A stretch of DNA of 64,000 nt. It comes from the human T2T-CHM13v2.0 reference genome, Homo sapiens. The stretch's first letter is position 1, and the number at the start of each line of letters is the position of its first letter. The DNA lies in NCBI RefSeq assembly GCF_009914755.1, contig NC_060940.1; one strand, written 5' to 3'. The translations under genes were made by a program, and so were the position numbers. Below, piece by piece: positions 1,209 to 8,694 of this stretch. The notes under the pieces were generated by a model, which was given only the letters and a program-made list of their open reading frames with translations, was not told the origin of the DNA and did not search any database.

Positions 1209-1550
1209 TAAGGGAGGAAGTGTTAGGAGCAGCTGTCTCCATGTCATTCATATTCTCCCACCACATACCAGTCCCAGGGAGGGGTGAGGAGGCTCTGAGG
1301 CAGTGCTGGGGGTGCTCTGCCCTCGGGTGTTTAGGACAGTGGGATGGACAAACGAGTAGAGGATTGAAGATAATGCAAGACTGACTGAAATTCCTTTAAA
1401 TGCGGGTATAAAAAAGGTCATGTGGAAACACAACAGGTTAACTCTGGATGGAGGGGAGCTGGGGAATCAGAAATGGAAGAATCGAAGGGCTACCAGGGAG
1501 GGTGAAAAGTACCCTTTGCCCTGACTCCAATTCTCGATTCCTACTTTCAG

Positions 1551-1618
1551 TTCAGGAGCAGGCAGCATCCCCAAATGCCGAGATCCACATCCTGAAGAAT
1601 AAAGGCCGGAAGAGAAAG
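1551..1618 (+). CDS. KIF22: KIF22 coding exon
   Basis: Acceptor ctactttcag|TTCAGGAG. Translation (I)[22 protein letters not shown]. Donor AAG|gtgaaa. Confidence 0.8.
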
Positions 1619-2174
1619 GTGAAAGTAGCTGGGGGCTTAGGCTACACCTGGAGCCCAGAAGTAAGGGGGAGTAGGCTCTAGGGGGAGGAGCGTTGGCCTT
1701 GGGGTTAAACGAACTGGATGATGGCCGCCAGCTACTAACAGACCTCAACTTGCTTACCCCTGGAATGTGGTGATGGATGGTTCCTTGCAGGGCATTTAGG
1801 GTGGAAGGCAGTGATGTGGATGTACCTCGCAGAGCGGATGTTCCACTGTGTAGCCTGGCTTCTACCCTCTACAAGCTTAAGAGGGAAAACTTAGGGAACT
1901 ATGACCTAAGCAGTCAAGCAAGAAACCACACATATGCACATACCCAGAATCGAACACCACTAGAACTACCCAAAAACTGAGATGGTTGGGGGAGGTATCA
2001 TTTATTCATATTACTTTCTCCCATGTACTTTTTGAAAGACAGCTTATTCTTTCCCTTTTAGAGATGAGGGACCAGATTTAAGAGCTTATTTTGTGCTTTA
2101 CATTCATTAACTCACTTGATCTCCACAGCAACTCCATGAGAAGGGTGCTAATATTACCACTGGGTACTGAGTAG

Positions 2175-2900
<726 letters not shown>

Positions 2901-3360
2901 TAACCCCGTGTTGTGTAAATACAGTTTTTGCTCCGGTGCTTCCGCCTGATTTTTGGGGCTGCGGGGGCGGGACCGGGGTGTGACCGCCTCGGGGTGGGCC
3001 GCGAGCAAGGCAGGCGACTCCACTGGGCGCCATCTTCGGGGAACGACTCAGCGCAGGATTGTAAATACACCGCTGGGGTGGGGCGGGGAGGACGGTGGCC
3101 TGCAGGACGCAAAAAGCGGAAGCCGAAGCATGAGGCCTGCGACCGTTAGGCGGGCGCGCGCTCAGGGATTAGCCCCGCCCCGTCCGTGCCCCCGGCGCGC
3201 GCGCTCCCCCATTCTCCCGCTCGGCAACGACGGCGGCCTTGTGCGCGTGCGCGCGAAATAACGGCCGCTGGCGGAGGGAGGGGGAGTGGAATCGTTGGCG
3301 GGGGGAAGAGGAGAGAAGCCGCCCTGTCTCCCGCGCGCCCACCACCTGCGCCATCGTCAG

Positions 3361-3365
3361 CCAAT
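3361..3365 (+). promoter_or_regulatory. MAZ: CCAAT box (cagCCAATcag), candidate NF-Y site in the MAZ upstream region
   Basis: Perfect CCAATCAG core within the CpG island, ~300-900 bp upstream of the MAZ coding starts. Confidence 0.35.
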
Positions 3366-3697
3366 CAGCAGCCGTCTCAGGGGTCTCGCGCTCGGGGCGA
3401 CTCGGGCTGCTGGGTGGCTCCCCCGTCCCTCCTCCCGCCAGAGTCCCTCTCGCGCCTGCCCCTCCCGCTGGCCACGCGCGCGCTCGCGCTAGCGCTCGCG
3501 CCCGCTCCAGCCTCTTGTGTGTCCTCGCGCCCCCCGCCCGCCCTCCCCGCGCGTAGTGTGCTCCGCTTCCCCCACCCTCCACCTCCCCCCTCCTGCCCGC
3601 CCCGCGCGCCTCCTCCCGGGTTCCCCCTCCCCCACCGCCGCCGCCTCCTCCTCCCGCCCCAGGGTGAGCGCGAGCCACCTCCCTCCCTCCCTCCGCC

Positions 3698-3733
3698 ATG
3701 GATCCCAGCAACTGGAGCAGCTTCATCTTCCAG
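3698..3733 (+). CDS. MAZ: Candidate alternative MAZ 5' coding mini-exon (MDPSNWSSFIFQ) that would splice in frame to MAZ exon 2
   Basis: Kozak-like gccATGG. 12 codons end in TTCCAG|gtaaca, a consensus donor in phase 0, compatible with the phase-0 acceptor at 4531. Confidence 0.4.
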
Positions 3734-3954
3734 GTAACAACTCCCTCCCCCCGCCCCCACCCCCCTGCCCACACCCCCTCCTGCCCGCCCTCCCTCCCGT
3801 CCCACCCCCCCTCCGCGCGCCCGGTGCGCGCGCAGCTGTCCCCCTCCCTCCCTCGCGCCCTCCCCCGCCCTCCCCGAGGCGCCGGCTGGGCGCGCGCGCG
3901 GCGGGGGCCGAGGCTGCTCCCTCGCTCCCCCCACCCCGCCCCGCCAGGCTCCAA

Positions 3955-3981
3955 CCGCCGCCGCCGCCGCCGCCGCCGCCC
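3955..3981. repeat. MAZ: (CCG)9 trinucleotide repeat in the MAZ 5'UTR or promoter
   Basis: ccgccgccgccgccgccgccgccgccc read directly. Confidence 0.9.
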
Positions 3982-4254
3982 GGGCCCCCGCCCCCGGCCC
4001 CGGCCCCGCGGGGCCTCCCGCCCCCACCCAGGGGGCGTCGCCGCCGCCGTCGCCGCGGCGCTCCGCGGCCCGCAAGGCGCCCTCCTTTCCTCCCTCCCGC
4101 CGGCCGGGGTGCGCGGGCGGCGGGGCGGCCCGCGGGCCATGCGTTCGGCGCGGCCCAGCCCGGCCGGCCGGGGGCGGCGCCCCGAGCCCGGGCCCCGCGC
4201 GGCCCGCGCCCCCGGCCCCCGCTGAGCCCTGGGGGCCCCGCTGCGGCCGAGGCC

Positions 4255-4446
4255 ATGTTCCCGGTGTTTCCTTGCACGCTGCTGGCCCCCCCCTTCCCCG
4301 TGCTGGGCCTGGACTCCCGGGGGGTGGGCGGCCTCATGAACTCCTTCCCGCCACCTCAGGGTCACGCCCAGAACCCCCTGCAGGTCGGGGCTGAGCTCCA
4401 GTCCCGCTTCTTTGCCTCCCAGGGCTGCGCCCAGAGTCCATTCCAG
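4255..4446 (+). CDS. MAZ: MAZ exon 1 coding part (MFPVFPCTLLAPPFPVLGLDSRGVGGLMNSFPPPQGHAQNPLQVGAELQSRFFASQGCAQSPFQ)
   Basis: Exact match to the MAZ N-terminus, 64 codons. Donor CAG|gtgagt at 4446/4447. Confidence 0.9.
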
Positions 4447-4530
4447 GTGAGTAGGGCCGGCCGCGGCGGCCCGGGCTGGGGGGGGACGCCCGCCCGCACC
4501 CGCGGCCCACTCGGCGCCTTGTCTCCGCAG

Positions 4531-5381
4531 GCCGCGCCGGCGCCCCCGCCCACGCCCCAGGCCCCGGCGGCCGAGCCCCTCCAGGTGGACTTGCTCCCGG
4601 TGCTCGCCGCCGCCCAGGAGTCCGCCGCGGCTGCTGCGGCCGCTGCCGCCGCTGCTGCCGCCGTCGCTGCCGCGCCCCCGGCCCCTGCCGCCGCCTCTAC
4701 GGTGGACACAGCGGCCCTGAAGCAGCCTCCGGCGCCCCCTCCGCCACCCCCGCCAGTGTCGGCGCCCGCGGCCGAGGCCGCGCCCCCCGCCTCCGCCGCC
4801 ACTATCGCCGCGGCGGCGGCCACCGCCGTCGTAGCCCCAACCTCGACGGTCGCCGTGGCCCCGGTCGCGTCTGCCTTGGAGAAGAAGACAAAGAGCAAGG
4901 GGCCCTACATCTGCGCTCTGTGCGCCAAGGAGTTCAAGAACGGCTACAATCTCCGGAGGCACGAAGCCATCCACACGGGAGCCAAGGCCGGCCGGGTCCC
5001 CTCGGGTGCTATGAAGATGCCGACCATGGTGCCCCTGAGCCTCCTGAGCGTGCCCCAGCTGAGCGGAGCCGGCGGGGGAGGGGGAGAGGCGGGTGCCGGC
5101 GGCGGCGCTGCCGCAGTGGCCGCCGGTGGCGTGGTGACCACGACCGCCTCGGGGAAGCGCATCCGGAAGAACCATGCCTGCGAGATGTGTGGCAAGGCCT
5201 TCCGCGACGTCTACCACCTGAACCGACACAAGCTGTCGCACTCGGACGAGAAGCCCTACCAGTGCCCGGTGTGCCAGCAGCGCTTCAAGCGCAAGGACCG
5301 CATGAGCTACCACGTGCGCTCACATGACGGCGCTGTGCACAAGCCCTACAACTGCTCCCACTGTGGCAAGAGCTTCTCCCG
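4531..5381 (+). CDS. MAZ: MAZ exon 2 (poly-Ala/Pro region plus C2H2 zinc fingers 1-4)
   Basis: Acceptor ctccgcag|GCCGCG. Translation AAPAPPPTPQ...KSKGPYICALCAKEFKNGYNLRRHEAIHTG...CGKSFSR. Donor CCCG|gtgtgc. Confidence 0.9.
4624..4676. repeat. MAZ: Imperfect GCN repeat encoding a poly-alanine tract (13 consecutive Ala) in MAZ exon 2
   Basis: gcggctgctgcggccgctgccgccgctgctgccgccgtcgctgccgcg. Confidence 0.8.
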
Positions 5382-5782: not shown

Positions 5783-5846
5783 GCCGGATCACCTCAACAG
5801 TCACGTCAGACAAGTGCACTCAACAGAACGGCCCTTCAAATGTGAG
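5783..5846 (+). CDS. MAZ: MAZ exon 3 (zinc-finger linker PDHLNSHVRQVHSTERPFKCE)
   Basis: Acceptor gtgtccccag|GCCGGA. Donor GAG|gtagga. Frame continuous with exon 2. Confidence 0.9.
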
Positions 5847-6122: not shown

Positions 6123-6294
6123 AAATGTGAGGCAGCTTTCGCCACGAAGGATCGGCTGCGGGCGCACACAGTACGACACGAGGAGAAAGTGCCATGTCAC
6201 GTGTGTGGCAAGATGCTGAGCTCGGCTTATATTTCGGACCACATGAAGGTGCACAGCCAGGGTCCTCACCATGTCTGTGAGCTCTGCAACAAAG
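6123..6294 (+). CDS. MAZ: MAZ exon 4 (KCEAAFATKDRLRAHTVRHEEKVPCHVCGKMLSSAYISDHMKVHSQGPHHVCELCNK)
   Basis: Acceptor cccctcctcag|AAATGT. Donor AAAG|gtacat. Confidence 0.9.
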
Positions 6295-7092: not shown

Positions 7093-7295
7093 GCTTCACC
7101 ACGGCAGCATACCTGCGCATCCACGCGGTGAAGGACCACGGGCTCCAGGCCCCGCGGGCTGACCGCATCCTGTGCAAGCTGTGCAGCGTGCACTGCAAGA
7201 CCCCTGCCCAGCTGGCCGGCCACATGCAGACCCATCTGGGGGGGGCCGCCCCCCCTGTCCCGGGAGACGCCCCCCAGCCACAGCCCACCTGCTGA
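7093..7295 (+). CDS. MAZ: MAZ alternative terminal coding exon (isoform with extra zinc finger: GFTTAAYLRIHAVKDHGLQAPRADRILCKLCSVHCKTPAQLAGHMQTHLGGAAPPVPGDAPQPQPTC*)
   Basis: Acceptor ccccccaatag|GCTTCA in the same phase as the exon-4 donor. C2H2-type finger motif. Stop TGA 7293-7295. Confidence 0.7.
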
Positions 7296-7629
7296 GGGGG
7301 ACCCCCGCACCCACCAGGCAAGGCGTGGGGCATGGCTGGGGGGCGGGATGGGGGGTGTGGGGGACAACGGGGCTCAAAGGGCCCAATAGGGGATCTCAGG
7401 AAGGCGAGGGATGCCCATGTACCACTCAGGCTAGGGAGACTTCTGGGCACAGGGAGGATCCTTGAGAACTGCTCTGTCTGGGTGAGGATGCAGGCTGAGG
7501 CCTCTGGGGTCCAGATAGGAAGTGAGCAACGGCTGTGTCCCAGGGGAAGCAGGCTGGGAAGGTGTGGGGTGAGGGCAAGGCTCTTGCCATTCAGATCGCG
7601 CTGTGATCCGTGGTGTTTCTCCTGTGCAG

Positions 7630-7784
7630 GTACTGGTGAGGTTTGTCCAATGGCGGCGGCAGCGGCAGCGGCGGCAGCGGCAGCAGCGGCAGCAGTAGCA
7701 GCCCCTCCCACAGCTGTGGGCTCCCTCTCGGGGGCGGAGGGGGTGCCTGTGAGCTCTCAGCCACTTCCCTCCCAACCCTGGTGA
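7630..7784 (+). CDS. MAZ: MAZ terminal coding exon of the 477-aa isoform (TGEVCPM-A15-VAAPPTAVGSLSGAEGVPVSSQPLPSQPW*)
   Basis: Acceptor cctgtgcag|GTACTG. Stop TGA 7782-7784. Total spliced CDS is 1434 nt, i.e. 477 aa. Confidence 0.9.
7652..7700. repeat. MAZ: GCN repeat encoding poly-Ala (about 15 Ala) in the MAZ last exon
   Basis: gcggcggcagcggcagcggcggcagcggcagcagcggcagcagtagcagcc. Confidence 0.8.
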
Positions 7785-8694
7785 GCTCCAAGTTGGTTGC
7801 GGGGGAGAGGGGAGAATGGAGTAGAGTCCCTTGGTACAAGCTCCTCTCCCCCCTCTTTTCCCACCAACTCCTATTTCCCTACCAACCAAGGAGCCTCCAG
7901 AAGGAAAGGAGGAAGAAATGTTTTCTTAGGGGAATTCGCTAGGTTTTAACGATTTGTTTCTCCTGCTCCTCTTCTATCAGACCTGACCCCACACAAACCT
8001 GTCCCCTCGGTTGTGTTGAAGTCCCCTGGACAGTGGGCAGGGGTGGCAGAGGACACGAGCAGCCACTGCCCGTACCCCCTCTCCTCTCTGTAAGCCCATG
8101 CCCTGTCTTCCCAGGGACTTGTGAGCCTCTTCCCTCGACGGTCCTCTTCTCTCCTTCCAGTCCTCTCCCCCTGCTGTCTGCAGCCCCTCCCCGGGGAGTT
8201 GGTGCTTTCTTTTCCTTTTTTTTTTTTTTCCAGGGGGAGGGAGGAGAGGAAGGAGGGGGATCAGAGCTGTCCCAAAGAGGGAAAGCGGTGAGGTTTGAGG
8301 AGGGGCAGAAGCAGGGCCGGCAAAGGTTGTACCTTCATAAGGTGGTATGGGGGGTTGGGGTCAGGCCCTGAACATCGTCCTACTTGAGAATCTGTCAGGG
8401 GAAAAAGTCAAGGGGAGCAGGAGGAAGAGCCAGGAGGGCCAGAGGCAGAGAAGAGATGGAGTCTTAGGGGCCAGGGTGAGCGAGGGGTCCAGGGCCTAGA
8501 GGTGCTTCCTGGGGGCGGGGGAATGCAGCCAGTGTCCCCCTCCCCTCTTCCACCCCAGCTCCAGCCCTGGTCTTGTCTTTTCATCCCTCTTCCCCACGAC
8601 AGAAGAAGTTGTGGCCCTGGCCATGTCATCGTGTTCCTGTGTCCCCTGCATGTACCCCACCCTCCACCCCTTCCTTTTGCGCGGACCCCATTAC

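What the first reader, a model, noticed from the sequence alone, without database searches (positions are those of the whole stretch)
3698..3733. Upstream in-frame MAZ mini-exon (MDPSNWSSFIFQ) with consensus donor
About 560 bp upstream of the canonical MAZ ATG there is a 12-codon ORF with a strong Kozak context (gccATGG) ending in TTCCAG|gtaaca. The canonical exon 1 also ends in the hexamer TTCCAG in the same phase-0 configuration. Splicing 3733 to 4531 would give an in-frame protein MDPSNWSSFIFQ-AAPAPPPTPQ... lacking the canonical N-terminal 64 aa. This would be an alternative MAZ N-terminus generated from inside the GC-rich 5' leader. I believe such a MAZ variant exists in transcript catalogues but cannot verify it here.
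Basis: partly seen in the sequence, partly recalled or inferred. Interest (0 to 1): 0.5.

Follow-up and report, generated by a model that had tools for sequence, protein, structure and literature searches.

The report
Known MAZ-3/SAF-3 alternative first coding exon

Summary
The sequence is exactly as described. ATG 3698 sits in a GCCATGG context, encodes MDPSNWSSFIFQ and ends CAG|GTAACA at 3733/3734. It lies 557 nt upstream of the canonical MAZ ATG (4255).

This is not new. Published SAF-3-specific primers, and the published SAF-3 start codon (ATG GAT CCC, with a BamHI site), map to 3693-3721 and 3698-3706 with no mismatch (PMC6340948, citing Ray et al. 2009, FEBS J 276:4276).

Three lines of evidence point to an internal acceptor, cctcag|GGTCAC at 4360, inside canonical exon 1 and in phase 0:
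- The reporter junction primer reads CATCTTCCAG|GGTCAC...
- The reporter fragment ends at the Bsu36I site 4354-4360, so it has no exon-2 acceptor.
- The published MAZ-3 length is 454 aa, which is 12 + (477 - 35) (PMC5622404).

MAZ-3 therefore replaces residues 1-35 of MAZ-1, not 1-64. It comes from an upstream alternative promoter: reporter expression of SAF-3 needs window ~2683-3489.

I could not query transcript catalogues, RNA-seq junctions or vertebrate orthologues with these tools. A minor 3733>4531 product is therefore not excluded.

Verdict: already known, low interest.

The parts
3698..3733 (+). Coding part of the SAF-3/MAZ-3 alternative first exon (MDPSNWSSFIFQ). The 5' end of the exon (its transcription start) lies further upstream and was not mapped here.
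   Evidence: Sequence. The published SAF-3 forward primer CCGCCATGGATCCCAGCAACTGGAGCAGC maps to 3693-3721 with 0 mismatches, and the BamHI site is at 3700. The published start codon is 'ATG GAT CCC'.
3734..4359 (+). SAF-3-specific intron: 626 nt, 84.5% G+C, GT...AG. It contains the SAF-1 transcription start (~4084), the canonical ATG 4255 and codons 1-35 of MAZ-1.
   Evidence: Donor CAG|GTAACA. Acceptor ccacctcag|GG. A candidate branch point CTCAT has its A at 4336, 23 nt upstream of the acceptor.
4360..4446 (+). The 87-nt 3' part of canonical exon 1, used as an internal exon in SAF-3 (GHAQNPLQVGAELQSRFFASQGCAQSPFQ). The acceptor AG is at 4358-4359, in phase 0.
   Evidence: The junction primer CATCTTCCAG|GGTCAC... 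and the reporter fragment ending at the Bsu36I site 4354-4360. Only this junction gives 454 aa.
4255..4446 (+). Canonical MAZ-1/SAF-1 first coding exon (64 codons), donor CAG|GTGAGT.
   Evidence: The assembled protein is 477 aa, the published MAZ-1 length.
4531..5381 (+). Exon 2 in canonical numbering, shared by all isoforms.
2683..3489 (+). Region needed for SAF-3 reporter expression: the MluI-NheI fragment, -1395/-595 in the paper's numbering. It probably holds the upstream promoter or transcription start.
   Evidence: MluI at 2682 and NheI at 3488 are 806 bp apart, as in the paper. Deleting this fragment abolished SAF-3 fluorescence. A CCAAT box lies at 3361-3365.

Best explanation
Window 3698-3733 is the coding end of the alternative first exon of human MAZ isoform SAF-3 (MAZ-3). 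Transcripts from a promoter upstream of the classical SAF-1/MAZ-1 start site include this exon. Its donor (CAG|GTAACA, 3733/3734) is spliced to an alternative 3' splice site inside the canonical first exon (cctcag|GGTCAC, exon base 4360, phase 0). That removes the canonical ATG and codons 1-35 as part of a 626-nt intron. Translation starts at the strong-context ATG 3698 and yields a 454-aa protein, MDPSNWSSFIFQ + MAZ-1 residues 36-477, with the same zinc fingers.

Shown: the sequence features, the exact match to published SAF-3 primers and start codon, and the agreement of protein length and amplicon size with the 4360 junction.

Taken from the literature: the use of an upstream promoter, and the report that SAF-3 is a better activator expressed during inflammation. 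I did not see the stated reason for that stronger activity.

Inferred: the position of the transcription start, and the branch point.
For: The primers used to clone the human SAF/MAZ promoter map exactly at 1725-1744 and 4439-4458. The SAF-3 forward primer maps at 3693-3721 with 0 mismatches. CATCTTCCAG, the 5' half of the junction primer, equals 3724-3733, and its 3' half GGTCAC equals 4360-4365. Restriction sites reproduce the paper's map: Bsu36I at 2391 and 4354 (the 1.9-kb fragment), and MluI 2682 to NheI 3488 (806 bp). This places +1 at about 4084 and +277 at 4360. The reporter therefore has no exon-2 acceptor, yet it expressed SAF-3 and gave the junction RT-PCR product. Assembled proteins are 477 aa (MAZ-1), 493 aa (MAZ-2) and 454 aa (3733>4360), the three published lengths. 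The endogenous SAF-3 amplicon was reported as 208 bp; I calculate 203 bp via 4360 and 116 bp via 4531. PMC12102611 states that MAZ-3 has a different N-terminus because of a different transcription start site. It also calls the MAZ-2 exon 'exon 6', which fits only if the upstream exon is counted as exon 1.
Against: I could not read the original paper (Ray et al. 2009), and no transcript catalogue or RNA-seq junction data are available here. The calculated amplicons differ from the reported ones by 5 bp (SAF-3) and 2 bp (SAF-1). The SAF-1 forward and shared reverse primers carry 2 and 1 mismatches to this human sequence, so the published sizes may come from another species' cDNA. The wording in PMC5622404 ('first 34 aa replaced by 13 aa') does not add up to its own 454 aa. 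The junction primer was designed for a reporter, not for the endogenous mRNA. The rough acceptor score for 4531 (5.6) is slightly higher than for 4360 (4.4). TCGA data cited in PMC12102611 show very low MAZ-3 mRNA in gastric cancer. No text hit was found for the peptide.
Confidence: 0.88

Rival explanations
1. One reading: the mini-exon is spliced directly to exon 2 (3733>4531) and skips canonical exon 1 entirely. The main product is then a 425-aa protein, MDPSNWSSFIFQ-AAPAPPPTPQ..., lacking MAZ-1 residues 1-64.
For: Both sites are in phase 0 and the join is in frame. The 4531 acceptor is constitutive and scores slightly higher than 4360 in a rough position-weight score. Nothing available here excludes a minor product.
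Against: The published MAZ-3 is 454 aa, not 425. The reported 208-bp RT-PCR product is far from the predicted 116 bp. SAF-3 was expressed from a reporter that lacks the 4531 acceptor, and was detected with a primer spanning 3733|4360.
Confidence: 0.07
2. The ATG at 3698 acts mainly as the start of an upstream ORF in unspliced long-leader transcripts. That ORF has 175 codons and stops at TGA 4223-4225, 30 nt before the canonical ATG. On this reading it represses translation of MAZ-1 rather than encoding an isoform N-terminus.
For: The frame is open from 3698 to 4225, and the ATG has a strong Kozak context. Any transcript from the upstream promoter that retains the intron would have to be read this way.
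Against: The open frame is no longer than chance allows in this composition (2779 of 5000 shuffles were as long). Published RT-PCR and reporter data show that the exon is spliced and that its ATG drives a fused reporter protein. MAZ-3 cDNA has been expressed and studied as a protein. The two roles are not mutually exclusive.
Confidence: 0.04
3. A chance ATG plus GT in a promoter CpG island, never used.
For: The sequence statistics alone are weak, and the donor lacks a G at +5.
Against: Directly contradicted by the published primers, RT-PCR and reporter data.
Confidence: 0.01

Closest known systems
SAF-3 / MAZ-3 (human MAZ isoform 3; Ray et al. 2009, FEBS J 276:4276, as cited in PMC6340948, PMC5622404 and PMC12102611)
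   Same: The start codon and first codons (ATG GAT CCC...), the specific primer, the BamHI site, the upstream position relative to the SAF-1 start, the requirement for an upstream promoter, and the 454-aa product.
   Different: Nothing in the sequence differs.
MAZ-1 / SAF-1 (477 aa) and MAZ-2 / SAF-2 (493 aa)
   Same: Same gene, same exons from 4531 onward, same zinc-finger region. MAZ-3 shares the MAZ-1 C-terminus.
   Different: MAZ-1 and MAZ-2 start at ATG 4255 from the downstream promoter (+1 at about 4084). MAZ-2 differs at the C-terminus through the exon at 7093-7296.
General class: an alternative promoter and first exon joined to an alternative 3' splice site inside the canonical first exon (a 'hybrid' first/internal exon)
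   Same: Canonical exon 1 is a first exon for one promoter. Its 3' 87 nt serve as an internal exon for the upstream promoter. The two N-termini are mutually exclusive.
   Different: None of note. This is a common arrangement in mammalian genes.

Membership tests
Human MAZ locus (16p11.2) | Published human SAF/MAZ promoter primers and restriction map fit the sequence; the assembled proteins have the published lengths; the expected neighbouring genes are present. | tested here: met
   Primers map exactly at 1725-1744 and 4439-4458, and the Bsu36I/MluI/NheI/BamHI sites match the paper. The assembled proteins are 477 and 493 aa. Exact peptide matches place PRRT2, PAGR1 and MVP downstream on the + strand.
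SAF-3/MAZ-3 first exon | It contains the published SAF-3 start codon and the SAF-3-specific primer sequence. | tested here: met
   CCGCCATGGATCCCAGCAACTGGAGCAGC equals 3693-3721 with 0 mismatches, and 'ATG GAT CCC' overlaps the BamHI site at 3700.
SAF-3/MAZ-3 first exon | Splicing from its donor gives the published 454-aa protein. | tested here: met
   3733>4360 gives 454 aa and 3733>4531 gives 425 aa. The published length is 454 aa.
SAF-3/MAZ-3 first exon | The spliced junction is observed in endogenous RNA (cDNA, EST or RNA-seq). | not testable with these tools
   I have only indirect evidence. The published 208-bp RT-PCR product compares with 203 bp calculated for the 4360 junction. No transcript databases are available, and the protein collection lacks even canonical human MAZ.
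SAF-3/MAZ-3 first exon | It is transcribed from a start site upstream of 3698. | not testable with these tools
   The literature shows that SAF-3 reporter expression is lost when window ~2683-3489 is deleted. No CAGE or RACE data are available here.
SAF-3/MAZ-3 first exon | The mini-exon is conserved in other mammals. | not testable with these tools
   No vertebrate sequences are in reach (one search found no candidates). There is only a weak hint: the SAF-1 forward and shared reverse primers of Ray et al. carry 2 and 1 mismatches to human, as if designed on another species, while the SAF-3 primer matches human 29/29.

The most novel reading that the evidence does not exclude
That would give further N-terminally truncated MAZ isoforms, possibly not yet catalogued, that lack more of the N-terminal region.
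Probability: 0.15. Interest if true: 0.15.

Novelty: already known. Interest (0 to 1): 0.08.

Why it matters
The finding has little importance as a discovery. The exon and its isoform were published in 2009. They have since been used in promoter-reporter work (2019) and isoform-function work (2025).

The practical value of this check is the corrected structure. The alternative N-terminus replaces 35 residues, not 64, because the acceptor lies inside canonical exon 1.

This changes how the isoform should be looked for:
- Primers: the expected product is 203 bp with the published SAF-3 primer pair (3693-3721 forward, 4585-4605 reverse), not 116 bp.
- Proteomics: the diagnostic tryptic peptide is MDPSNWSSFIFQGHAQNPLQVGAELQSR.
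- Function: residues 36-64 of MAZ-1 are retained in MAZ-3.

Tried and rejected
An exact-sequence look-up of the 425-aa, 441-aa and canonical 477-aa proteins found none in the collection. The collection therefore lacks human MAZ altogether and is uninformative here.

A homology search seeded on the alternative N-terminus plus the start of exon 2 found no candidate, for the same reason.

The original paper (Ray et al. 2009) could not be fetched by PubMed id or by DOI.

Full-text searches for the peptide and for RefSeq/UniProt isoform accessions gave 0 hits.

PMC5622404 has no supplements held. The PMC12102611 supplements contain only C-terminal isoform primers, which do not distinguish MAZ-1 from MAZ-3.

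The PDB sequence search returned only generic C2H2 zinc-finger hits.

An Rfam scan of the whole window gave 0 hits.

I considered and rejected the idea that the 175-codon unspliced ORF is significant, because 56% of shuffles were as long.

I attach no significance to the shared TTCCAG hexamer at the two exon ends. It is a 6-mer that largely overlaps the donor consensus, and I did not test it.

Full report
**Observation**

The window around the finding reads ...ctccgccATGGATCCCAGCAACTGGAGCAGCTTCATCTTCCAG|gtaacaac....
- The ATG is at 3698 with G at -3 and G at +4. The 36-nt ORF encodes MDPSNWSSFIFQ and ends at 3733, directly followed by GT.
- The canonical MAZ ATG is at 4255, 557 nt downstream. 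Its 64-codon exon ends TTCCAG|gtgagt at 4446/4447.
- The next acceptor is ccgcag|GCC at 4531.

**Gene identity**

I assembled the exons 4255-4446, 4531-5381, 5783-5846 and 6123-6294.
- Adding 7630-7785 gives a 477-aa protein.
- Adding 7093-7296 instead gives a 493-aa protein.
- These are the lengths published for MAZ-1 and MAZ-2 (PMC5622404).

The primers used to clone the human SAF/MAZ promoter map exactly at 1725-1744 and 4439-4458. Exact peptide matches place PRRT2 (10608), PAGR1 (14076) and MVP (28100) downstream on the same strand. This is the human 16p11.2 MAZ locus.

**What the mini-exon is**

PMC6340948 (Biosci Rep 2019) describes two MAZ variants, SAF-1 and SAF-3. They are transcribed from two start sites and differ at their N-termini.
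- The paper gives the SAF-3 start codon as 'ATG GAT CCC', overlapping a BamHI site.
- It gives a SAF-3-specific forward primer, CCGCCATGGATCCCAGCAACTGGAGCAGC, taken from Ray et al. 2009 (FEBS J 276:4276).
- That primer equals window 3693-3721 with no mismatch, and the only BamHI site in 1501-5000 is at 3700.

So the finding is the first coding exon of the published isoform SAF-3, also called MAZ-3.

PMC12102611 (2025) likewise states that MAZ-3 has a different N-terminus because of a different transcription start site. It calls the MAZ-2-specific exon 'exon 6', and that numbering fits only if this upstream exon is counted as exon 1.

**Which acceptor is used**

Four lines of evidence point to an acceptor inside canonical exon 1, ...aactccttcccgccacctcag|GGTCACGCC, with first exon base 4360. 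Position 4360 is 105 nt (35 codons) after ATG 4255, so it is in phase 0.

1. *Protein length.* PMC5622404 gives MAZ-3 as 454 aa. Joining 3733>4360 gives exactly 454 aa, beginning MDPSNWSSFIFQ-GHAQNPLQVGAELQSRFFASQGCAQSPFQ-AAPAPP.... Joining 3733>4531 gives 425 aa.
2. *Junction primer.* The reporter RT-PCR primer for SAF-3 is CATCTTCCAG|GGTCACCTCG. CATCTTCCAG is 3724-3733 and GGTCAC is 4360-4365. The remaining bases (CTCG) come from the cloning oligo.
3. *Reporter map.* The reporter's 1.9-kb promoter fragment was inserted through Bsu36I sites.
   - Those sites are at 2391 and 4354. MluI (2682) and NheI (3488) are 806 bp apart, as the paper states.
   - This fixes +1 at about 4084, +277 at 4360 and -1692 at 2392.
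   - The fragment therefore ends at the internal acceptor and lacks 4531 altogether, yet SAF-3 reporter protein and the junction RT-PCR product were obtained.
4. *Amplicon size.* The endogenous SAF-3 RT-PCR product is reported as 208 bp. I calculate 203 bp through 4360 and 116 bp through 4531.

The small discrepancies (208 against 203 bp for SAF-3, 271 against 269 bp for SAF-1) go together with 2 and 1 mismatches of the SAF-1 forward and shared reverse primers to the human sequence. That suggests the sizes were computed on another species' cDNA. This is my inference.

**Anatomy of the splice**

The SAF-3 intron is 3734-4359: 626 nt, 84.5% G+C, GT...AG. A CTCAT branch-point candidate lies 23 nt upstream of the acceptor.

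I scored splice sites with a rough position-weight matrix. Its frequencies are recalled from the literature and approximate, so it is useful only for ranking.

| Site | Sequence | Score | Percentile |
|---|---|---|---|
| Donor 3734 (mini-exon) | CAG\|GTAACA | 3.05 | 95.6 |
| Donor 5847 (exon 3) | GAG\|GTAGGA | 3.51 | 96.6 |
| Donor 5382 (exon 2) | CCG\|GTGTGC | 1.78 | 93.0 |
| Donor 6295 (exon 4) | AAG\|GTACAT | 1.77 | 92.9 |
| Donor 4447 (canonical exon 1) | CAG\|GTGAGT | 8.52 | 100.0 |
| Acceptor 4360 (internal) | ...ccacctcag\|GGT | 4.4 | 96.9 |
| Acceptor 4531 (exon 2) | ...ctccgcag\|GCC | 5.56 | 98.0 |

Percentiles are among all 3098 GT or 5213 AG dinucleotides in the window. 'Consensus donor' is thus a mild overstatement, and sequence alone would not choose between the two acceptors. 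The experimental record does that.

**Promoter**

In the paper's numbering the SAF-3 ATG lies at about -386. It is upstream of the SAF-1 start and not inside the canonical leader.

SAF-3 reporter expression was lost when -1395/-595 (window ~2683-3489) was removed, even though the ATG and 209 nt upstream of it remained. The upstream promoter, or elements it needs, lie in that interval. A CCAAT box at 3361-3365 is one candidate element. I could not map the start site.

**Function, from the literature only**

SAF-3 is reported to be a better transcriptional activator than SAF-1 and to be expressed during inflammation (PMC6340948, citing Ray et al. 2009). MAZ-3 behaves like MAZ-1 in gastric cancer migration assays, and its mRNA is very low in TCGA gastric cancers (PMC12102611).

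**Rivals**

- The reading of ATG 3698 as an upstream ORF start applies only to unspliced transcripts. That ORF has 175 codons and stops at 4223-4225. Its length is what chance gives in this composition (2779 of 5000 shuffles).
- A pure chance ATG plus GT is contradicted by the published experiments.

**Limits**

None of the sequence collections available here holds vertebrate genes. Even canonical human MAZ is absent. I therefore could not test cross-species conservation, transcript catalogues or junction reads. The original paper could not be opened.

The sentence in PMC5622404 that '34 aa are replaced by 13' does not add up to its own figure of 454 aa. A replacement of 35 by 12 does.

**Verdict**

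The feature is already known, so interest is low.

Noticed in passing
window 4139-4225 (+): An upstream ORF of 28 codons (GGGCCATGC context; MRSARPSPAGRGRRPEPGPRAARAPGPR) ends at TGA 4223-4225, 30 nt before the canonical MAZ ATG. It lies inside the SAF-1 5' UTR if +1 is about 4084, and it is in the same frame as unspliced read-through from ATG 3698.
   Followed up: partly
window 3661-3669 (+): A donor-like site AGG|GTGAGC (GT at 3664-3665) lies 34 nt upstream of the SAF-3 ATG. It scores higher than the 3734 donor in the rough position-weight score (4.5 against 3.05). It could end a non-coding alternative first exon that bypasses the SAF-3 ATG.
   Followed up: no
window 4409-4425 (+): A third in-frame acceptor candidate, tctttgcctcccag|GGC (exon base 4423, phase 0), has the best rough acceptor score between 3734 and 4600 (8.7). 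Joined to 3733 it would give MDPSNWSSFIFQ-GCAQSPFQ-AAP.... No branch-point motif was found within 12-55 nt upstream of it.
   Followed up: partly
window 3955-3980 (+): A perfect (CCG)8.7 trinucleotide repeat sits just upstream of the SAF-1 start site and inside the SAF-3 intron. It is flanked by further C-rich short repeats between 3743 and 4058.
   Followed up: no
window 3540-3695 and 3740-3880 (+): Dense CCCTCCC/CCCCGCCC runs (G-rich on the other strand) surround the mini-exon, with GC skew down to -0.46. These are the kind of Sp1/MAZ sites to which the cited literature attributes repression of the MAZ promoter by Sp1 and by MAZ itself. Binding was not tested here.
   Followed up: no
window 10608, 14076, 28100 (+): Exact peptide matches place the starts of PRRT2 and PAGR1 and the N-terminus of MVP downstream of MAZ on the same strand, which confirms the 16p11.2 context. 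An Rfam gathering-threshold scan of the whole 64-kb window found no RNA family.
   Followed up: partly
primers of Ray et al. as quoted in PMC6340948, against window 4253-4281, 4585-4605 and 3693-3721: The SAF-1 forward and common reverse primers have 2 and 1 mismatches to this human sequence, while the SAF-3 forward primer matches 29/29. If all three were designed on a non-human cDNA, the 5' part of the mini-exon is perfectly conserved in that species. This is an untested inference.
   Followed up: no
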